Position numbers and translations under genes: made by a program
Source of the DNA: Thermoanaerobaculia bacterium
GTDB taxonomy: Bacteria; Acidobacteriota; Thermoanaerobaculia; Gp7-AA8
Direction of reading: 5' to 3'
DNA: 64,000 bases
NCBI GenBank assembly: GCA_035995985.1
Contig: DASYJY010000155.1
Coordinates: 16,416 to 80,415 of the forward strand
In this document: piece by piece, positions 3,453-55,492 of the stretch
Numbering within the stretch: position 1 is the stretch's first letter
Layout: every line of letters begins with the position of its first letter
Notes under the pieces: generated by a model
The model's database searches: none
What the model was told of the DNA's origin: nothing
What the model saw: the letters and a program-made list of their open reading frames with translations, nothing else

Positions 3453-4508
3453 ATGAAGGTTCTGCACCTCGCTGCCGGCAATCGATGGACCGGCGCCGCC
3501 GCCCCCGCGTTCGCCGAAACCGAGGCGTTGCGCGATGCCGGCGTGGACGCGCATTACGCGTATGTGGGCGGCTACAAGCTACAGCAGAAGCTCGCGCATC
3601 ACGACTTCGCGCACCCGATCATCGCCAAAGCGCAGAACCCGTTTTCGTTCGCGCGGACGGTCAACGCGATCGCGCGGATGGTCGATCACCATCGCTTCGA
3701 TGTCGTGCACGCGCATCTGACGTATGACCATTGGCTCGCCAACGTCGCCACCCGAGGAGCGCGGACGAAGGTCGTTCGAACGTTTCATGCGCGGCGGGTC
3801 CTTCGCGGCGATCCGCTGACACGCTGGCTGGTCGCGCGATCGGCGCGGCTGTGCGTGATCAACGATTCGTTCATCGACGCGCCGGCGATACGCGGACGGA
3901 ATCCCGTCTTCACGCCTCCGCCGCTCGATCATCGCCAATTCGATCCGAACGGCCCCGATGTCCGTGAACGTTACGGCGCGCAAGTCGACGAGCTGCTGCT
4001 CGTTGCGATCGGCAAGTTGTCGAAAGGACGCGGCTTCGAAGACGTGCTGCGAACCTACGCGCTCGTCAAGCGCGATCTCGCAAAGGCGCGTCTGATGATC
4101 CTCGGCCACGGCGAACATCGCGCCGCGCTCGAAGCGCTCGCGCGCGAGTTGAACATCGAGGTGATCTGGGCCGGCTACCACGAGGACGATCTCGCCGAGC
4201 ACTACCGCGCCGCCGACATCCTTCTCTTCACCGCCCGCGGCTCTGACGAAGGCCACCGCGCGGTACTCGAAGCGATGGCCTGCGGCATCGCGCCGGTGAC
4301 GTTTCCCATCGAAGGCGTCTCCGCACTCCTCGGCGATCTCGCGCCGATGTTGATCGCCGAGGCGTCAACGCCGGAAGCCGCAGCGTCGAAAGTGATCGCG
4401 GCCTCGAACGATCTCGCATCACTTCGACGCCGAGCGTACGAGCAGTCGCAGAGCTTCGGATACGCGCAAGCGGCGGCGAGATTGATCGAGGTTTACCTCT
4501 CATCCTGA
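3453..4508 (+). CDS. glycosyltransferase family 4 (GT-B fold)
   Basis: MKVLHLAAGNRWTGAAAP is a typical GT4 N-terminus. The C-terminal EGHRAVLEAMACGIAPV resembles the E-x7-E region. An alternative ATG at 3423 is possible. Confidence 0.8.
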   Translation: MKVLHLAAGNRWTGAAAPAFAETEALRDAGVDAHYAYVGGYKLQQKLAHHDFAHPIIAKAQNPFSFARTVNAIARMVDHHRFDVVHAHLTYDHWLANVATRGARTKVVRTFHARRVLRGDPLTRWLVARSARLCVINDSFIDAPAIRGRNPVFTPPPLDHRQFDPNGPDVRERYGAQVDELLLVAIGKLSKGRGFEDVLRTYALVKRDLAKARLMILGHGEHRAALEALARELNIEVIWAGYHEDDLAEHYRAADILLFTARGSDEGHRAVLEAMACGIAPVTFPIEGVSALLGDLAPMLIAEASTPEAAASKVIAASNDLASLRRRAYEQSQSFGYAQAAARLIEVYLSS

Positions 4509-49105: not shown

Positions 49106-49732
49106 TTAGTCTTTGTGCATCCGGCGATGATGCTTCGTGGTCGTCTTGGCCGTCGTGTCGGTAGTGGTAGTCGTGGTGTCGGTCGTGGTCGACTGCGTTT
49201 CCGTGGTGCTGGAACTCATCGGAGCGGGCGTCTCCACAATTACGGGAGCCGGAGCCGGCGTCTCGACGATCACAGGCGTCGGTGCCGTTTCGACGACGAC
49301 GGGGGCAGGCGCCGGCGTAATCACCGTCGTCTCCGTCGTCTCGACCGTCGCCGGCGACTGCGTGACGACTACGTTCGAGCTGCTGCTCTTGGGGATGAGG
49401 TTTACGTTCGTGTTCGTGCCGATGCCGGAGCCGTTGCCGGTCGCGCCGACCGAGCTGCTCGTGTAGGCGCGTCCGCTGTTGTCAACCGCCGCCGGGCCGG
49501 AGATCACTGCCGGAGTGGAGGAGGTGCCGACGCCTTCCGTGTTTGCGGGCGCCTGAACCGTCCCCACCGTCGCTCCACTCACATCCGCGGTGGCCGGCGC
49601 CTCAGTGCGGATCTGGCCGTATCCCTGCGCATCCGCCGCTACATCGTGGTGTGCACATGCGCTCATCGCGATTACGAGCGCCGCCGACCCCAAGCCGGCA
49701 ACTGCTTTCTTAAGAATCGATTCTGTTCTCAT
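49106..49732 (-). CDS. hypothetical lipoprotein, Thr/Pro/Val-rich with tandem PAPxPV(I/V)VET repeats
   Basis: ATG 49732 follows AGGAGCAGGAA. Lipobox LVIAMSAC. C-terminal repeats PAPAPVVVET / APTPVIVET / PAPAPVIVET, then a poly-Thr stretch and a basic KHHRRMHKD end. Confidence 0.6.
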   Translation of the reverse strand: MRTESILKKAVAGLGSAALVIAMSACAHHDVAADAQGYGQIRTEAPATADVSGATVGTVQAPANTEGVGTSSTPAVISGPAAVDNSGRAYTSSSVGATGNGSGIGTNTNVNLIPKSSSSNVVVTQSPATVETTETTVITPAPAPVVVETAPTPVIVETPAPAPVIVETPAPMSSSTTETQSTTTDTTTTTTDTTAKTTTKHHRRMHKD

Positions 49733-49836
49733 TTTCCTGCTCCTTGCTGCCTTCGAACGGCAGCCGTCAATGCCTTGCGGCAGTGAACGGAAGAGCAACT
49801 AGCTTGCCTGAATTGATTTCAATAACATGTGTCGCC

Positions 49837-51138
49837 ATGGCCGAGCGCGTCTGGAAAGTAAGTGAGCTCATCCGTCAAATCAACGTCGACCTCTTTCGTT
49901 ACAACGACATAAGCGTCGAAGGCGAAGCAACCAATGTGGTCCGTTCCGCCGCCGGTCATATTTATTTTTCGATCAAAGATTCGCGGGCGCAGATGCGGGT
50001 GGTGCTCTTCGCCACCAATTCGCGCTTTCTCCGTTTCCGCATCGAGAACGGTTTGCAGCTCGTCGTCCGCGGCCGCTTGGCGTTGTACGAGCAAAAGGGG
50101 GAGTTCCAGCTCAACGCTGTCGCCGTCGAGCCGGCCGGCCTCGGCGCACTACAACTGGCGTTCGAGCAGCTCAAGAAACAGCTCGCCGATGAAGGCCTCT
50201 TCGATTCGGCACGCAAGAAACCGATTCCGATGCTGCCGCAGCGAATCGCCATCGTCACCAGTCCAACCGGCGCCGCGATCCGCGACGTCCTCAACGTCCT
50301 CGGGCGCCGCTTTGCGGGGCTGAGCGTTCAGATTTATCCGGTGCGCGTGCAAGGCCGCGACGCCGCGCGCGAGATCACCATCGCCATTCGTCGCCTGTCG
50401 CGCTGGCAGTTGCACGACGTCGTGCTGATCTGCCGCGGCGGAGGATCGCTAGAAGACCTCTGGGCATTCAACGAGGAGTCGCTCGCGCGCGCCGTCGCTG
50501 CCTGCTCGATTCCGACGATTTCCGCTATCGGCCACGAAACCGACTTCACCATCTGCGACTTCGTAGCCGACCTACGCGCGCCGACGCCGTCCGCCGCCGC
50601 CGAAATTGTGATTCGCGCCAAGAGCGAGATTTGTATGCAGATCGATCACATGACGCGGCGCGTGCGTCACGTGGTCGAGTCGCGCGTTCGCAACTACCGC
50701 CACGAGCTTCGCCATCTCGCGTCGTCCGATCGGCTCGGCCTCCTGCCCCGCCGCATCGCATCGCGCCGCGAACGCCTCGACCGCAGCCGCGTCACGCTCT
50801 TCCGCATGCTCGAAGCGCGCGCCCGCTCGATGCGCGCGCGACTGGCCGCCGTCAACGCACCGCTGCTGCGCTTTCCGTCGCAAGTCGCCCGCGAACGCGA
50901 ACGCCTCCGCTCCACCGCCGCCACCCTCGGCGCTGTCTCGCCACTCTCCGTCCTCTCCCGTGGCTACGCCATCGCCTTCTCGCGCACGAAACGCGGCAAA
51001 CGGAAGCCGATCATGGACGTCGCCTCCGTCGCGATCGGCGAACCGATCGAAGTTCAGTTGAAGACAGGCCGGCTCGAATGCACGGTTGACGCAAAGACGA
51101 TGGGGCTTGAGACTGTGTGGCCCACAACAGGGGAGTGA
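49837..51138 (+). CDS. xseA: exodeoxyribonuclease VII large subunit
   Basis: ATG 49837 gives MAERVWKVSELIRQIN...ISVEGEATNVVRSAAGHIYFSIKD. GRGGGSLEDLWAFN motif. Confidence 0.9.
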   Translation: MAERVWKVSELIRQINVDLFRYNDISVEGEATNVVRSAAGHIYFSIKDSRAQMRVVLFATNSRFLRFRIENGLQLVVRGRLALYEQKGEFQLNAVAVEPAGLGALQLAFEQLKKQLADEGLFDSARKKPIPMLPQRIAIVTSPTGAAIRDVLNVLGRRFAGLSVQIYPVRVQGRDAAREITIAIRRLSRWQLHDVVLICRGGGSLEDLWAFNEESLARAVAACSIPTISAIGHETDFTICDFVADLRAPTPSAAAEIVIRAKSEICMQIDHMTRRVRHVVESRVRNYRHELRHLASSDRLGLLPRRIASRRERLDRSRVTLFRMLEARARSMRARLAAVNAPLLRFPSQVARERERLRSTAATLGAVSPLSVLSRGYAIAFSRTKRGKRKPIMDVASVAIGEPIEVQLKTGRLECTVDAKTMGLETVWPTTGE

Positions 51139-51413
51139 TGGCCCGCAAGTCGAACGAATTCGAAAAAGCCTTTCAGCATCTCGAGACGATCGTGAAGCGT
51201 CTGGAGTCGGAGGAGATGCCGCTCGATGAGTCGCTGCAACTCTTCGAGGAGGGCATCCGGCTCTCTCGCTTCTGCAATCAGAAGCTGGAAGAGGTGGAGA
51301 AGAAGATCGAACTGATTCTCGCCGACGCCAAGGGACAGCCGCGCATCGAGCCGTTCGAGAGCGAGGAGCTCGACGAGCAGTCCGAGTTGCCAGCCGAGGA
51401 CGATGAGGAGTGA
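51138..51413 (+). CDS. xseB: exodeoxyribonuclease VII small subunit
   Basis: The ATG overlaps the xseA stop (TGATG). FEKAFQHLETIVKRLESEEMPLDESLQLFEEG. Confidence 0.9.
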   Translation: MARKSNEFEKAFQHLETIVKRLESEEMPLDESLQLFEEGIRLSRFCNQKLEEVEKKIELILADAKGQPRIEPFESEELDEQSELPAEDDEE

Positions 51414-52300
51414 GTGAGCTCGGCGACTATTTGAATTCGAAACGGCAACTCGTCGATCGCGTGCTCGACGCGAACCTTCCTCCGGGCGACATAGAACCAA
51501 CGGTCATTCATGAAGCGATGCGTTACGCCGTTCTCGGCGGCGGCAAACGGATCCGGCCGATCGTCGCCATCGCCGCAGCGGAAGCGTGCGGCGCCCACGT
51601 CGATGACCTTCTGCTTCCCATCGCGGCGCTGGAGCTGATCCACACCTACTCGCTGGTCCACGACGATCTCCCTGCCCTCGATGACGACGACCTTCGCCGC
51701 GGACGGAAGACCACGCACGTAGTTTTCGGCGAAGCGATCGGCATCCTCACCGGCGACGCGTTGCTCACCGAGGCGTTCTCGTGGCTGGCGCGGCCTGTCG
51801 TCGGAGTGGACGCGGCGCATCAGCTTCGCGCCATCCGCCAAGTCGCGATCGCCGTCGATTCGAAAGGGATGATCGGCGGCCAGGTTGCCGACATCATCGC
51901 CACCGGCACGGACAAATCGACGCCCGAGCTGCTCGACTTCATCCATCGCAACAAAACCGGCAAGCTGTTGACGGCGTCCGTCGTCCTCGGCGGGCTGCTG
52001 GCAAACGCTTCCGACGACAAGATTGAGGCGCTGCGGAGTTACGGCAATGCGGTCGGCCTGGCGTTCCAGATCGTCGACGACCTGCTCGATCAGGAAGAAG
52101 ACGCGGCCACGCTCGGCAAGACGGCTGGGAAGGATGTTGCACAAGGGAAGCTCACCTACCCCGCACTTTTCGGCACGGATGCAGCACGGGCCAGGGTCGA
52201 GTCGCTCCTCAGCGAGGCCCTCAGCAACGCTGCTATCATCGCCGGCCGTGTGAACTATCTCCCCGGAATCGCGCGTTTCATCTGCGAACGGCGATCCTGA
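51410..52300 (+). CDS. ispA: polyprenyl (farnesyl/geranylgeranyl) diphosphate synthase
   Basis: The GTG overlaps the xseB stop. First DDxxD region LVHDDLPALDDDDLRRG. Second motif FQIVDDLLD. Confidence 0.9.
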   Translation: MSELGDYLNSKRQLVDRVLDANLPPGDIEPTVIHEAMRYAVLGGGKRIRPIVAIAAAEACGAHVDDLLLPIAALELIHTYSLVHDDLPALDDDDLRRGRKTTHVVFGEAIGILTGDALLTEAFSWLARPVVGVDAAHQLRAIRQVAIAVDSKGMIGGQVADIIATGTDKSTPELLDFIHRNKTGKLLTASVVLGGLLANASDDKIEALRSYGNAVGLAFQIVDDLLDQEEDAATLGKTAGKDVAQGKLTYPALFGTDAARARVESLLSEALSNAAIIAGRVNYLPGIARFICERRS

Positions 52301-52317: not shown

Positions 52318-54348
52318 ATGACGCTCCTCGACACCATCAACTCACCGCAAGACCTCCGCAAACTCGATCGGAAGCAGCTGCACCAGCTCGCGGACGAGAT
52401 CCGCCACCGCATCATCGAAGTCGTTTCGAAAATCGGCGGCCATTTCGGCGGCAACCTCGGCATCGTTGAGCTGACGCTGGCACTCCACTACGTCTTCGAT
52501 ACGCCGCGCGATCAGGTCGTCTTCGATACCGGCCATCAGACCTATCCGCACAAACTCATCACCGGCCGCCGCGATACGTTCGACACCATCCGCATGCACG
52601 GCGGCATTTCCGGCTTCTGCAAGCGCGAAGAGTCGGAGTACGACGTCTTCAACGCCGGCCACGCGTCGACGTCGATCTCGGCCGCCCTCGGCATCGCCGT
52701 CGCGCGCGACATCAAACACGATGACTACCGCGTCGTTGCCATCATCGGCGACGGGGCACTGTCCGGCGGTCTCGCACTCGAAGGGCTGAATCAAGCCGGT
52801 CATCTCAAGCGCAAGCTGATGATCATCCTCAACGACAACGACATGTCGATCTCGACGAACGTCGGCGCGATGTCCGGCTACCTCAACGGGATCATCAAGG
52901 GGCAGACTTACAACAAGGGGAAGGATCTGGCGCGCGGCATCATGGATCGCATCCCGCTCGTCGGCGGCAAGCTTCACGGCATGGCCAGCGACATGGAGCA
53001 GCTCTTCAAACACATGATCGTGCCGGGCACGCTCTTCGAGGAGCTCGGCTTCAAATACCTCGGGCCCTTCGACGGCCACGATCTCGATTTCCTCATCGAC
53101 CTCTTCGAGAAAAACAAGGACTACAACGGCCCGCTCCTCGTCCACGTGATCACGAAAAAAGGGAAGGGCTACGTGCCGGCGGAGAATCGTCCGATCTGGT
53201 CACACGGCGTCTCGCCGTTCGATATCGACTCGGGCGATGTAGTGAAGTCGACGAAGGCGTCGCCACCGAGCTACACCGCTGTTTTCGCGGAGACCCTGAT
53301 CGAGCTCGCCAAGCGTGATCCGAAAATCGTCGGCATCACCGCGGCGATGCCGGACGGCACGGGGATGGACAAGTTTGCGAAGGCCTTCCCGGAACGCGCA
53401 TTCGACGTCGGCATCGCCGAAGAGCATGCGGTGACGTTCTGCGGCGGGTTGGCAACGCAGGGGATGAAGCCGATCGCGGCGATCTATTCGACGTTCCTGC
53501 AGCGCGCGTTCGATCAGGTCTTCCACGACGTGGCGATCATGGATCTGCCGGTGGTCTTCGCGCTCGACCGCGGCGGCATCGCCGGCGCTGACGGGCCGAC
53601 GCACCACGGCATCTATGACATGGCTTACCTGCGCATTTTCCCGAACATGGTCTGCATGGCGCCGAAGGACGAGAACGAGCTGCGGCACATGCTGAAGACG
53701 TCGTTCGAAACCGGCCATCCGACGTCACTGCGCTACCCGCGCGGCAACGGCTTCGGCGTGATGATGGACGCGGAGCTGCAGTCGCTACCGATCGGCAAAG
53801 GCGAGGTCATGCGCGAAGGAAACGCCGGCGCGATCTTCGCCATCGGCAACGAAGTCTGGCCGTCGATGCAGGCGGCCGAGATGCTTGCCAAAGAAGGAAT
53901 CGAAGTCGCCGTCATCAACGCGCGCTTCATCAAGCCGCTCGACGACGAGCTGATCGCGAAGTACTGCCGCCCCTTCACGAAAATCATCACCGTCGAAGAA
54001 GGCTCTCTCGCCGGCGGCTTCGGCGCGGCGATCATGGAGCGCGTCCAGCAACTCGGTATCCGCGACGTCGCCTTCCACCGCATCGGCATCCCCGACGAAT
54101 ACGTGCATCACGGCGCCCAGGAAGTCCTGCGCGCGCAGTACGACCTCGACGCGAATGGGATCGCGAAGCGGGTTCGGGAGTTTGTGGGGAAACAAAAGTC
54201 CGGTACGCTTGCTGATCTCGGTGCGATTCTCGACGAAGCGGGGAGCCGCATCCCGGACGCCGATCTGAAGCGAATGCACGACCGTGGTGTTGATTCCGAC
54301 CATATCGACGAGGTCGTATATGGCCTACGGCGACGCGTCGCGAAGTGA
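52318..54348 (+). CDS. dxs: 1-deoxy-D-xylulose-5-phosphate synthase carrying a ~50-aa non-Dxs C-terminal tail
   Basis: GGHFGGNLGIVELTLALH and IGDGALSGGLALEGLN (TPP motif). The Dxs-like sequence ends near ...DANGIAKRVREFVGKQ (aa ~626). The frame then continues through SGTLADLGAILDEAGSRIPDADLKRMHDRGVDSDHIDEVVYGLRRRVAK. Confidence 0.9.
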   Translation: MTLLDTINSPQDLRKLDRKQLHQLADEIRHRIIEVVSKIGGHFGGNLGIVELTLALHYVFDTPRDQVVFDTGHQTYPHKLITGRRDTFDTIRMHGGISGFCKREESEYDVFNAGHASTSISAALGIAVARDIKHDDYRVVAIIGDGALSGGLALEGLNQAGHLKRKLMIILNDNDMSISTNVGAMSGYLNGIIKGQTYNKGKDLARGIMDRIPLVGGKLHGMASDMEQLFKHMIVPGTLFEELGFKYLGPFDGHDLDFLIDLFEKNKDYNGPLLVHVITKKGKGYVPAENRPIWSHGVSPFDIDSGDVVKSTKASPPSYTAVFAETLIELAKRDPKIVGITAAMPDGTGMDKFAKAFPERAFDVGIAEEHAVTFCGGLATQGMKPIAAIYSTFLQRAFDQVFHDVAIMDLPVVFALDRGGIAGADGPTHHGIYDMAYLRIFPNMVCMAPKDENELRHMLKTSFETGHPTSLRYPRGNGFGVMMDAELQSLPIGKGEVMREGNAGAIFAIGNEVWPSMQAAEMLAKEGIEVAVINARFIKPLDDELIAKYCRPFTKIITVEEGSLAGGFGAAIMERVQQLGIRDVAFHRIGIPDEYVHHGAQEVLRAQYDLDANGIAKRVREFVGKQKSGTLADLGAILDEAGSRIPDADLKRMHDRGVDSDHIDEVVYGLRRRVAK

Positions 54349-54752
54349 TGCCGGAATACTTCGTCGACACTTGGTACCTTATTGCGCGCATTGATCGCTT
54401 TGACGCGCATCACTCGCAGGCTCGCCGTCTTGAATCCCGGTTGAAGCTCGCGACGCTCGTCACGCATGACGCCGTTCTGACTGAACTCCTGGCGTACTTC
54501 TCGGGTGAGGGAGCAAACGCCCGCATCGAGGCAGTTCATGCGGTCCGCGAGGTCGCCGCAACGTTGATCGTCATTCCAGGCAGCCGCGATCTTTTCGAGC
54601 GAGCACTGAATCTTTACGAACGTCGTCCCGATAAGGAGTACTCGCTCGTCGACTGCATGTCGATGACGCTCACGCGCGAGCGCGGGATCACGCACGTCCT
54701 CACGAACGACCATCACTTCCGCCAGGAAGGGTTCACCGTCGTTAACGAATGA
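54348..54752 (+). CDS. PIN-domain (VapC-like) ribonuclease toxin
   Basis: MPEYFVDTWYLIARI... has the four PIN acidic positions (VDT, LTELL, LVDCMS, TNDHHF). ATG 54348 shares one base with the dxs stop (TGATG), or GTG 54345 overlaps it. The stop overlaps the tlyA ATG (ATGA). Confidence 0.8.
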   Translation: MPEYFVDTWYLIARIDRFDAHHSQARRLESRLKLATLVTHDAVLTELLAYFSGEGANARIEAVHAVREVAATLIVIPGSRDLFERALNLYERRPDKEYSLVDCMSMTLTRERGITHVLTNDHHFRQEGFTVVNE

Positions 54753-55492
54753 AGAAGCAGCGGCTGGACGTCGCCCTCGTCGAACGCGGACTTTGTGAAA
54801 CGCGGTCGAAGGCGCAGTCGCTGATCATGGCCCGGCGGATACTCGTCAACGGCCGGCATGTCGACAAGGCGGGAGCGAACGTCGCCGATGACGATGAGTT
54901 GCGCATCGAGGCGCTGGAGCACCCCTGGGTCGGACGCGGTGGGATGAAGCTCGCGCATGCGCTGCGCGAATTCGGGATCAGCGTCGAAGGGAAGGTCTGC
55001 GCCGACATCGGCGCGTCGACCGGCGGCTTCACCGACGTCATGCTCAAGAACGGCGCGAAGAAGGTTTACGCAATCGACGTCGGCTACGGACAGATCGACG
55101 TTTCGCTTCGCAATGATCCGCGGGTGATCAATCGCGAGAAGGTCAACGCGCGTTATCTCACCGCGGCGGATTTTGACGAGGTCATCGAATTCGTTGCCAT
55201 AGACGTCTCCTTCATTCCGCTCAAGCTGATCCTGCCGGCCGTGGCCACGTTTCTTCACGGCGATCTCGTTGCGCTGATCAAACCGCAGTTCGAAGTCGGC
55301 AAGGCCGACGTCGGAAAAGGCGGGATCGTTCGCGACGAAATCAAGCGTGCGGCGGCCGTCGATGCCGTCGTCGCGTTCGCGCGCGAGATCGGTTTCGAGG
55401 TTCGCGGCGTCATCGAGAGTCCGGTCAAGGGCGCCGAGGGAAATGTCGAATATCTGATGTCCGCAGGAAATTTGGCGAATCGGGCCATCTAA
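54749..55492 (+). CDS. tlyA: TlyA family rRNA 2'-O-methyltransferase
   Basis: N-terminal S4 domain RLDVALVERGLCETRSKAQSLI. DIGASTGGFTD SAM motif. Confidence 0.9.
   Translation: MKKQRLDVALVERGLCETRSKAQSLIMARRILVNGRHVDKAGANVADDDELRIEALEHPWVGRGGMKLAHALREFGISVEGKVCADIGASTGGFTDVMLKNGAKKVYAIDVGYGQIDVSLRNDPRVINREKVNARYLTAADFDEVIEFVAIDVSFIPLKLILPAVATFLHGDLVALIKPQFEVGKADVGKGGIVRDEIKRAAAVDAVVAFAREIGFEVRGVIESPVKGAEGNVEYLMSAGNLANRAI

What the first reader, a model, noticed from the sequence alone, without database searches (positions are those of the whole stretch)
54184..54752. PIN toxin gene inserted into the xseAB-ispA-dxs-tlyA operon, with the antitoxin-like partner encoded as an in-frame tail of Dxs
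- **Insertion into a conserved operon.** The order xseA-xseB-ispA-dxs-tlyA is also known from Bacillus. Here a 134-aa PIN-domain gene with all four acidic PIN positions sits between dxs and tlyA. Its start overlaps the dxs stop (TGATG or GTGA) and its stop overlaps the tlyA start (ATGA).
- **No separate antitoxin.** PIN toxins normally follow a small antitoxin gene, but no separate ORF exists here in any frame.
- **Dxs tail.** The Dxs frame runs ~50 codons past where Dxs-like sequence ends (…GIAKRVREFVGKQ). The tail is SGTLADLGAILDEAGSRIPDADLKRMHDRGVDSDHIDEVVYGLRRRVAK, which resembles short helical antitoxins.
- **Shared codon usage.** The tail and the PIN gene both use visibly more A/T-ending codons (ctt, gct, gat, ggt, att, gtt, cat, gta, tat) than the flanking genes. 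This looks like a TA cassette that landed on the dxs stop codon.
- **Possible internal start.** An in-frame GTG at 54184, preceded by GGGAG, could also yield a free 54-aa antitoxin nested in dxs.
- **Consequence.** Either way an essential isoprenoid enzyme would be physically or translationally tied to a toxin.
Basis: partly seen in the sequence, partly recalled or inferred. Interest (0 to 1): 0.7.

Follow-up and report, generated by a model that had tools for sequence, protein, structure and literature searches.

The report
Antitoxin tail fused to Dxs enzyme
In a group of soil Acidobacteria, the essential isoprenoid enzyme Dxs ends in a short tail that matches the toxin-binding end of small antitoxin proteins, and the matching PIN RNase toxin gene follows directly, so a core metabolic enzyme appears to act as the antidote carrier of a toxin-antitoxin pair.

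Summary
The dxs ORF (52318-54348) runs 53 codons past the Dxs family model. A 134-aa PIN gene (54348-54752) overlaps the dxs stop and the tlyA start.

- **Conservation.** The same in-frame tail plus PIN occurs in 43 further species-level Thermoanaerobaculia genomes. No intact PIN was found without a tail. Seven loci have lost the PIN but keep a tail or a tail scar.
- **Homology of the tail.** Its profile matches the C-terminal module of free-standing small proteins (hhalign 97-98%). These proteins carry ParD-RHH, HicB-like, AbrB-like or helical N-termini. They sit directly upstream of, and overlap, PIN genes 35-46% identical to this one, including on plasmids of cultured bacteria.
- **Nature of the PIN.** It has invariant D-E-D-D residues and is closest to M. 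tuberculosis VapC20 and VapC26, which cleave the sarcin-ricin loop.
- **Cassette behaviour.** Tail and PIN evolve together and separately from the Dxs core and tlyA. Nucleotide identity to the nearest relatives is about 92% in the flanks and 46-68% across the tail plus the first three quarters of the PIN.

Verdict: a VapBC-type toxin-antitoxin pair whose antitoxin has lost its own N-terminal domain and is expressed as a Dxs extension. This is a new variant of a known kind. Binding, toxicity and physiological role are inferred, not shown.

The parts
49744..51138 (+). xseA (exonuclease VII large subunit), first gene of the operon. The true start may lie downstream of the first TTG.
   Evidence: PF02601 E=8.9e-92, PF13742; ORF list
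51117..51413 (+). xseB (exonuclease VII small subunit)
   Evidence: PF02609 E=4e-22
51410..52300 (+). ispA-type polyprenyl synthase
   Evidence: PF00348 E=1.7e-55
52318..54186 (+). Dxs catalytic core (aa 1-623)
   Evidence: TIGR00204 833.6 bits, aa 6-623; the three Pfam Dxs/transketolase domains
54176..54186 (+). GGGAG-TTT-GTG: candidate internal start (V623) for a free 54-aa antitoxin. Judged unlikely.
   Evidence: Sequence. The motif is present in 24/43 tail-bearing and 5/36 tail-less loci, but it encodes the Dxs residues R-E-F-V and the spacing is 3 nt.
54187..54348 (+). Antitoxin-like tail of Dxs (aa 624-676 plus the stop codon). It comprises a helix (TLADLGAILDEAG), then IPDADL, then DSDHIDEVVYG, then a basic end (RRRVAK).
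   Evidence: No Pfam, NCBIfam or PDB match. Conserved in frame in 43 further loci. hhalign 98.2% and 96.9% to the C-terminal module of free-standing PIN-linked small proteins. dN/dS 0.08-0.23.
54345..54350 (+). GTGATG junction where the dxs stop codon overlaps the PIN start codon (translational coupling)
   Evidence: Sequence. The PIN start overlaps or abuts the dxs stop in every tail-bearing locus, most often by 4 nt.
54348..54752 (+). VapC-type PIN-domain RNase (putative toxin), 134 aa
   Evidence: PF01850 E=4e-10. D7/E46/D102/D121 invariant. Only PDB sequence hit is VapC20, E=5.6e-8. AF2 pLDDT >90 over the PIN part; Foldseek best hits VapC20 (TM 0.88, rmsd 1.9 A) then 5x3t_B.
54180..54650 (.). 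Hypervariable cassette: the tail plus about the first 100 codons of the PIN. Boundaries are approximate to within 90 nt.
   Evidence: Nucleotide identity to L001, L002, L004 and L005 is about 88-98% in the dxs core and tlyA, but 46-68% here. Tail and PIN distance matrices correlate (r=0.53, Mantel 0/2000), while tail against core gives 0.16.
54749..55492 (+). tlyA (rRNA 2'-O-methyltransferase). Its start overlaps the PIN stop (ATGA).
   Evidence: TIGR00478 244 bits; PF01728 and PF01479

Best explanation
This is a type II, VapBC-like toxin-antitoxin pair embedded in the xseA-xseB-ispA-dxs-tlyA operon. Its antitoxin has been reduced to the toxin-binding C-terminal module and is made as the last 53 residues of the essential enzyme Dxs.

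**Shown**
- The tail is a conserved, selected, in-frame part of Dxs.
- It is homologous to the C-terminal module of free-standing small proteins that precede PINs of this subfamily.
- The PIN has an intact active site and is closest to the sarcin-ricin-loop RNases VapC20 and VapC26.
- Tail and PIN are inherited, exchanged and lost as a unit.

**Inferred**
- The tail wraps over the PIN active-site face. The conserved D-E-x-V-Y-G motif and the basic residues after it are the likely contacts. This would keep the RNase inactive while it is docked on the Dxs dimer.
- The PIN is translated by termination-reinitiation at the overlapping GTGATG. It would therefore be made only after a full Dxs-tail and in lower amounts.
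- There is no DNA-binding domain, so the pair cannot autoregulate. It relies on the operon promoter.
- Clipping or degradation of the exposed tail, or imbalance after expression stops, would free the RNase. It would then cut rRNA (probably the 23S sarcin-ricin loop) or tRNA and halt translation.
- Fusion to an essential gene also makes the antidote hard to lose by deletion.
For: **Conserved fusion**
- 43 further species-level genomes have a 49-94-aa in-frame tail and an adjacent PIN.
- Linkers between core and tail vary in length but are never out of frame and never interrupted by a stop codon.

**Co-occurrence and asymmetric decay**
- No intact PIN occurs without a tail.
- The PIN is deleted or truncated while a tail or scar remains in L001, L030, L039, L040, L064, L011 and L010.

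**Homology of the tail**
- An exhaustive HMMER search of 1.84 billion representatives with the tail profile found free-standing 60-130-aa proteins with the same module.
- hhalign gives 98.2% (E=5e-14) and 96.9% (E=1.6e-10).

**Partners of those free-standing proteins**
- L090 and L094 carry an overlapping PIN, 46% identical to the window PIN (E=3e-34; HMM E=1e-37 to 1e-38).
- L099 carries a ParD-RHH + module protein followed by an overlapping PIN 42% identical (E=4e-33).
- Plasmids of Microcystis, Stanieria and Salinibacter carry PINs 35-43% identical. Each is preceded by an overlapping small gene with a HicB-like or AbrB-like N-terminus and a C-terminal ...HDHY[IL]YG[ST]PK end.

**Toxin-like PIN**
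- Four invariant acidic residues.
- VapC20 is the only PDB sequence hit and the best structural match, followed by 5x3t_B.
- VapC20 and VapC26 cleave the SRL (PMC5175351).

**Unit behaviour and selection**
- Tail against PIN r=0.53 (Mantel 0/2000); tail against core 0.16; core against tlyA 0.68.
- A sharp identity trough falls over 54180-54650.
- dN/dS is below 0.3 for both tail and PIN.
Against: - No direct evidence of binding or neutralisation.
- The one usable AF2 run (tail joined to PIN, with alignment depth only for the PIN) gave only pLDDT 54-74 for the tail. No coordinates or PAE were available to inspect docking.
- Toxicity of this PIN subfamily is untested.
- Two of six free-standing homolog contexts have no PIN (L089, L091), and one has a frameshifted PIN (L092/L093).
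- An antitoxin welded to a presumably stable enzyme does not fit the labile-antitoxin paradigm.
- Long vertical retention in a housekeeping operon is unusual for TA modules and could indicate domestication.
- The loss asymmetry (7 against 0) is only suggestive, because the PIN is the larger mutational target.
Confidence: 0.7

Rival explanations
1. Domesticated module. The pair descends from a TA cassette, but the PIN is no longer a growth-arresting toxin. It would be a Dxs-docked housekeeping or regulatory RNase (for example acting on rRNA alongside TlyA, or on operon mRNA), and the tail would be a docking peptide rather than an inhibitor.
For: - The arrangement is retained vertically in a conserved operon across two large Dxs clades.
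- The PIN is under purifying selection.
- No promoter-like or terminator-like site separates it from dxs or tlyA.
- It has no PADLOC defence match.
Against: - The PIN has been lost repeatedly without loss of dxs or tlyA.
- The tail and the N-terminal part of the PIN are hypervariable and are swapped between close relatives. This is typical of conflict or specificity systems, not of housekeeping partners.
- Homologs are two-gene modules on plasmids with classical antitoxin N-terminal domains.
Confidence: 0.15
2. Nested gene. The functional antitoxin is a free peptide of about 54 aa, initiated at the in-frame GTG 54184 (or another internal start). The fusion to Dxs would be incidental, or the locus makes both products.
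For: GGAG-N3-GTG at codon 623 occurs in 24/43 tail-bearing loci against 5/36 tail-less loci.
Against: - The motif encodes the Dxs residues R-E-F-V, so its conservation is confounded by protein coding.
- The 3-nt spacing between GGAG and GTG is too short for a good Shine-Dalgarno interaction.
- 19/43 tail-bearing loci lack the full motif, 13 of them have no GTG at that codon, and they share no other conserved start.
- No lineage has a stop codon between core and tail, although linker lengths vary from about 0 to 45 aa and are always in frame.
Confidence: 0.1
3. Artefact. The tail results from a missed stop codon, a frameshift or a chimeric assembly, or it is a chance ORF extension.
For: None found. 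Only a few short, low-coverage metagenome contigs (L084, L085, L088) look chimeric.
Against: - The same continuous frame recurs in 43 independent assemblies, including multi-megabase contigs.
- The motif is conserved and dN/dS is 0.08-0.23.
Confidence: 0.01

Closest known systems
VapBC20 and VapBC26 of Mycobacterium tuberculosis (type II TA; the PIN toxin cleaves the 23S rRNA sarcin-ricin loop)
   Same: - VapC20 is the only PDB sequence hit of this PIN (E=5.6e-8) and its best structural neighbour (TM 0.88, rmsd 1.9 A, 30% identity).
- 5x3t_B comes next. That this entry is VapBC26 is from my own knowledge.
- The four acidic residues align.
- The antidote coding sequence lies immediately upstream and overlaps the toxin start (PMC5175351).
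   Different: - VapB20 and VapB26 are separate small proteins. That they carry an N-terminal DNA-binding domain is from my own knowledge and was not tested here.
- Here the antidote has no DNA-binding domain and is the C-terminus of a 74-kDa enzyme.
- The tail profile finds no VapB chain in the PDB.
- The RNA target was not tested here.
Unnamed PIN / '...DHY[IL]YG.PK'-module antitoxin pairs (Chloroflexota, Planctomycetota and cyanobacterial, Salinibacter and haloarchaeal plasmids)
   Same: - The PIN belongs to the same subfamily (35-46% identity).
- The C-terminal antitoxin module is homologous (hhalign 97-98%).
- The gene overlap is the same 4 nt.
   Different: There the module sits on small proteins of 60-105 aa with ParD-RHH, HicB-like, AbrB-like, AF2212-like or 'MTAKEAL' helical N-termini. 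Here the N-terminal partner is the whole Dxs enzyme. The module has no Pfam or NCBIfam model.
Single-polypeptide fused toxin-antitoxins (such as CapRel-type and EzeT; listed from my own knowledge, with CapRel as a fused TA also noted in PMC9712102 and PMC13423816)
   Same: An antitoxin element is covalently attached to a larger protein instead of being a free labile peptide.
   Different: In those systems the antitoxin is fused to its own toxin. Here the toxin stays a separate ORF and the antitoxin is fused to an unrelated essential metabolic enzyme.
Canonical Dxs (TIGR00204), as in the Bacillus-type xseA-xseB-ispA-dxs-tlyA cluster
   Same: The Dxs core is full-length and high-scoring, and it occupies the same operon position. 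That this gene order is known from Bacillus is from my own knowledge.
   Different: Tail-less relatives end 11-22 aa after residue 623, and tlyA follows directly. This Dxs carries a 53-aa tail of foreign origin.

Membership tests
Type II VapBC toxin-antitoxin system | Toxin is a PIN-domain protein with the conserved acidic quartet | tested here: met
   PF01850 E=4e-10. D7, E46, D102 and D121 are invariant in 80 sequences. VapC fold, TM 0.88 to VapC20.
Type II VapBC toxin-antitoxin system | Antitoxin coding sequence lies immediately upstream of the toxin gene, is co-transcribed, and usually overlaps it | tested here: met
   The tail codons end at the TGA that overlaps the PIN start. The same junction is found in all tail-bearing loci. 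Difference: the antitoxin is not a separate gene.
Type II VapBC toxin-antitoxin system | Antitoxin has an N-terminal DNA-binding domain (RHH, AbrB, HTH or Phd) that autoregulates the operon | tested here: not met
   The tail has no such domain. The Dxs core precedes it. Free-standing relatives do have ParD-RHH, AbrB-like or HicB-like N-termini.
Type II VapBC toxin-antitoxin system | Antitoxin C-terminal region binds and neutralises the cognate toxin | not testable with these tools
   Only indirect evidence: homology to the C-terminal module of PIN-linked small proteins, tail-PIN co-evolution and co-occurrence. AF2 gave pLDDT 54-74 for the tail and no contact data.
Type II VapBC toxin-antitoxin system | Free toxin inhibits growth; the antitoxin is more labile than the toxin | not testable with these tools
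   Needs experiments. The loss pattern (PIN lost 7 times with a tail or scar kept, tail never lost first) is consistent but not significant on its own.
VapC20/VapC26 sarcin-ricin-loop-cleaving subgroup | Closest sequence and structure relatives are VapC20 and VapC26 | tested here: met
   phmmer against the PDB finds only VapC20. Foldseek ranks 1-3 are VapC20 and rank 4 is 5x3t_B.
VapC20/VapC26 sarcin-ricin-loop-cleaving subgroup | Cleaves the 23S rRNA SRL | not testable with these tools
   Inferred only from the finding that phylogeny predicts VapC targets (PMC5175351). Identity to VapC20 is only about 30%.
Dxs (1-deoxy-D-xylulose-5-phosphate synthase, TIGR00204 equivalog) | Full-length match above the curated cut-off, with the three transketolase-like domains | tested here: met
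   833.6 bits against a cut-off of 465.95, aa 6-623. PF13292, PF02779 and PF02780 are all present.
Single-chain fused toxin-antitoxin | Toxin and antitoxin domains lie in one polypeptide | tested here: not met
   The PIN is in a different reading frame and starts after the dxs stop codon.

The most novel reading that the evidence does not exclude
The Dxs-tail/PIN pair is a working checkpoint or a new addiction strategy. A VapC20-like ribosome-cutting RNase would be held inactive only while bound to the C-terminus of the first enzyme of the MEP isoprenoid pathway. The integrity or abundance of Dxs would then gate translation. The selfish cassette would have made its antidote undeletable by welding it to an essential gene, and competing tail/PIN alleles would replace one another by recombination through the flanking dxs and tlyA (and conserved PIN 3' end) sequences.
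Probability: 0.3. Interest if true: 0.85.

Novelty: new variant of a known kind. Interest (0 to 1): 0.72.

Why it matters
- **New architecture for TA systems.** Type II antitoxins are understood as small, labile, self-regulating proteins. Here the neutralising module appears to have been moved onto a large, essential, presumably stable metabolic enzyme and kept there across dozens of species. If confirmed, this shows that a TA system can dispense with autoregulation and with a dedicated antitoxin gene.
- **Testable physiology.** It offers a natural case in which toxin control is tied to a central biosynthetic enzyme.
- **Evolutionary dynamics.** It documents allelic replacement of a cognate tail/toxin cassette inside a housekeeping operon.
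- **Unnamed antitoxin module.** It defines a widespread PIN-binding antitoxin module (...IP-E-E...D-[EH]-x-[VY]-[VIL]-Y-G-x-[KR]) that joins to many different N-terminal domains and has no family model.
- **Annotation.** Pipelines will call these loci 'Dxs' plus an orphan 'PIN domain protein' and miss the pairing.

Tried and rejected
1. **Word-indexed search with the tail profile.** It returned only 14 short proteins. All proved to be Dxs C-terminal fragments at contig ends or in frameshifted contigs. It also failed to list the full-length fusions, so its negative result was not trusted.
2. **Short contigs with non-Dxs sequence before the tail.** L084, L085 and L088 are low-coverage, rearranged or chimeric contigs. 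They were rejected as evidence for free-standing copies.
3. **Metagenome scan with the 'MTAKEAL' family alignment.**
   - The second gave only 5 loci, of which 1 was informative (L094).
4. **Structure prediction of a tail-PIN complex.**
   - A single-sequence run on the joined chain gave pLDDT 43 and was useless.
   - MAFFT misaligned tail fragments onto the PIN.
   - The final run had alignment depth only for the PIN, and no coordinates were available.
5. **Tail profile against PDB sequences.** Only designed coiled coils were hit, which is noise.
6. **Other searches with no result.**
   - PADLOC gave no hit.
   - The promoter/terminator scan found nothing between dxs, PIN and tlyA.
   - The window and the 80 loci hold no paralogous tail or PIN copies.
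7. **Literature.** Searches found no paper linking Dxs with an antitoxin or PIN partner.
Full report
**Observation**

The + strand of the window carries xseA (49744-51138), xseB (51117-51413), ispA (51410-52300), dxs (52318-54348), a PIN gene (54348-54752) and tlyA (54749-55492). The Dxs equivalog model TIGR00204 covers residues 6-623 at 833.6 bits. The last 53 residues (GKQKSGTLADLGAILDEAGSRIPDADLKRMHDRGVDSDHIDEVVYGLRRRVAK) match no Pfam or NCBIfam family.

The dxs stop overlaps the PIN start (GTGATG), and the PIN stop overlaps the tlyA start (ATGA). No separate + strand ORF precedes the PIN. GTG 54184 is in frame (V623) and is preceded by GGGAG with 3 nt of spacing. GC3 is 0.62 for the tail and 0.71 for the PIN, against 0.85 for the Dxs core. 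No 53-codon window of the core falls below 0.75.

**Not an error and not a one-off**

A scan of one genome per species with this Dxs returned 80 loci. All are from Thermoanaerobaculia or other Acidobacteriota MAGs. Local tblastn and ORF tracing gave the following:
- 43 loci have a 49-94-aa extension in the Dxs frame and an intact PIN directly after it. The PIN start overlaps or abuts the dxs stop.
- One further locus (L016) has the tail, with its PIN cut by the contig end.
- The tails share a clear motif: T-x-G-E-helix, [DQ]-I-P-x-E-E-L, then either RMHEKGxDSDHIDE[VF]VYG or KLPGSDRIDEVVYG, then a basic end.
- Linker length between core and tail varies by up to about 45 residues but is never out of frame and never interrupted by a stop.
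- About 29 loci have an ordinary Dxs end (11-22 residues after position 623) and no PIN.
- No locus has an intact PIN without a tail.
- Seven loci keep a tail or a recognisable scar while the PIN is truncated or gone. These are L001, L030 and L039 (PIN remnants of 15-36 codons inside contigs), L040, L064, L011 and probably L010.
- dN/dS in close pairs is 0.08-0.23 for the tail and 0.08-0.30 for the PIN.

**What the tail is**

The word-indexed search with a tail profile found only Dxs C-terminal fragments at contig ends. The exhaustive HMMER search of 1.84 billion representatives additionally found free-standing proteins of 60-130 aa whose C-termini carry the same module, for example ...IWEVIREIMADVPDEVLATIPSSDRIDEIVYG... 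and ...IWADVPEEEWAKLPSDLSDNLDHYLYGTPK. A further profile search enlarged this set.

The module is attached to several different N-termini:
- a ParD-type ribbon-helix-helix (P0182: PF03693 E=4.7e-8, TIGR02606 E=1.2e-11; P0186: TIGR02606 E=1.3e-4);
- an AF2212-like segment;
- a short 'MTAKEAL...' helix.

Profile-profile comparison of the Dxs tails with these two groups gives 98.2% (E=5e-14) and 96.9% (E=1.6e-10). The module itself has no Pfam, NCBIfam or PDB match.

**What those proteins sit next to**

- In L090 and L094 the small gene overlaps a PIN gene. That PIN scores E=1e-38 and 1.6e-37 against an HMM built only from Dxs-linked PINs. The L090 PIN is 46% identical to the window PIN.
- In L099/L100 the RHH + module protein overlaps by 4 nt a 135-aa protein 42% identical to the window PIN (E=4e-33).
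- In L092/L093 the PIN is present but frameshifted, in two independent samples.
- L089 and L091 are orphans.
- In annotated plasmids of cultured organisms, tblastn with the window PIN finds 35-43% identical PINs. Each is preceded by an overlapping 'hypothetical protein'. The plasmids are Microcystis aeruginosa NIES-2481 p1, Stanieria PCC 7437 pSTA7437.01 and Salinibacter ruber pSR66. The upstream protein has a HicB-like or AbrB-like N-terminus and a C-terminus such as ...LPTDGAEEHDHYLYGSPKK.

The pair 'module + this PIN subfamily' is therefore a widespread, partly plasmid-borne two-gene unit with classical antitoxin architecture. In the Thermoanaerobaculia clade, Dxs replaces the N-terminal domain.

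**The PIN**

D7, E46, D102 and D121 are invariant in 80 homologs. The only PDB chain detectable by sequence is M. tuberculosis VapC20 (E=5.6e-8). An AlphaFold2 model (PIN part pLDDT >90) superposes best on VapC20 (TM 0.88, rmsd 1.9 A), followed by 5x3t_B. That 5x3t is VapBC26 is from my own knowledge. VapC20 and VapC26 both cleave the 23S rRNA sarcin-ricin loop, and VapC phylogeny predicts the target (PMC5175351). SRL cleavage is therefore a reasonable but untested guess. That the gene downstream is an rRNA methyltransferase may be coincidence.

**Tail and PIN behave as one unit, distinct from their flanks**

- Pairwise identity matrices over 41 loci correlate for Dxs core against TlyA (r=0.68) and for tail against PIN (r=0.53; Mantel 0 of 2000 permutations; partial r given core 0.51).
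- They correlate only weakly for tail against core (0.16) and tail against TlyA (0.13).
- The closest relatives of the window are L001, L002, L004 and L005, with Dxs cores 97-99% identical in protein. Against them, nucleotide identity is about 88-98% through dxs and tlyA.
- Identity falls to 46-68% from about 54180 to about 54650 (the tail plus the first three quarters of the PIN) and returns to 93-98% in the last 30 or so PIN codons.
- That depth of divergence cannot have arisen in place, so the cassette has been replaced by recombination. P0121/L083, with two complete tail modules in tandem, may be a footprint of such an event.
- Lower GC3 of tail and PIN relative to the Dxs core holds in 43/43 loci.

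**Distribution**

On a Dxs NJ tree the tail + PIN state fills two large clades. It is absent from a third clade and is lost sporadically elsewhere. This fits an old acquisition with losses, possibly helped by recombination.

**Internal start**

GGAG-N3-GTG at codon 623 is commoner in tail-bearing loci (24/43) than in tail-less loci (5/36). However, it encodes the Dxs residues R-E-F-V and the spacing is poor. Nineteen tail-bearing loci lack the full motif, and 13 of those have no GTG at that codon. No other start is conserved. The unbroken frame through variable linkers argues that the fusion product is the selected one. A minor free peptide cannot be excluded.

**Mechanism (inferred)**

- Dxs-tail docks and inhibits the PIN.
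- The PIN is translated by coupling at GTGATG.
- Without a DNA-binding domain there is no autoregulation.
- Release would need clipping or turnover of the tail.
- No promoter-like or terminator-like site separates the genes, and there is no PADLOC match.

**Limits**

- Binding, toxicity, the RNA target and the in vivo products are untested.
- The complex could not be modelled properly with the tools allowed.
- Whether the genome has a second dxs is unknown.
- The loss asymmetry is only suggestive.

**Novelty**

Searches of the held literature found no report linking Dxs with an antitoxin or PIN partner. I file this as a new variant of the VapBC kind. It meets the toxin, gene-order and homology criteria. 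It fails the 'antitoxin with its own DNA-binding domain, separate gene' criterion.

Noticed in passing
L050:7902-8348 (+); L048:7919-9625 (-); the same 420-460-nt gap in L038, L046, L058, L061, L065 and L079: In tail-less relatives the dxs-tlyA junction holds other inserted genes. One is a 148-aa non-PIN ORF. In L048 it is a 568-aa membrane-protein ORF on the opposite strand. The junction looks like a recurrent insertion spot.
   Followed up: partly
L083:3-266 (protein P0121); also the Dxs tails of L005 and L032: A Dxs C-terminal fragment carries two complete tail modules in tandem (an 'RMHEKGHDSDHIDEV' type followed by an 'RLPGSDHVDEVVYG' type). L005 and L032 have partial duplications of the first helix. 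These may be footprints of cassette replacement.
   Followed up: no
L004 PIN (starts at 3509), residue about 121: The fourth acidic active-site residue is Ala (LTNAHHF instead of LTNDHHF), while the tail is intact. This may be an inactivated toxin allele, or an assembly error.
   Followed up: no
L092:2501-3165 and L093:1330-1994: The free-standing antitoxin-like gene (P0149) is followed by a same-family PIN split by a frameshift. The split is identical in two independent samples, and gene callers missed the PIN.
   Followed up: partly
L089:2236-2716: Two tandem genes for tail-module proteins (73 and 72 aa) lie after an H+-pyrophosphatase gene, with no PIN nearby. L091 is likewise an orphan copy whose syntenic relative L090 has the PIN.
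   Followed up: partly
Proteins P0140 and P0145: In these short metagenome proteins the tail module follows non-Dxs sequence (a PSCyt-like segment and a LuxR-type HTH-like segment). They could be chimeric contigs or fusions of the module to other proteins.
   Followed up: no
window 49106-49798 (-): A 230-aa ORF rich in Thr, Pro and Val has repeated 'TPAPAPV(V/I)VE' units and a lipoprotein-like N-terminus. It lies just upstream of xseA on the opposite strand.
   Followed up: no
window 54658-54752 and the same region in the loci: The last 30 or so codons of the PIN (…THVLTNDHHFRQEGFTVVNE) are nearly invariant. They stay at flank-level nucleotide identity even between different cassette types. 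PIN deletions in L001 and L039 spare this end, which may carry tlyA translation signals or serve as a recombination anchor.
   Followed up: partly
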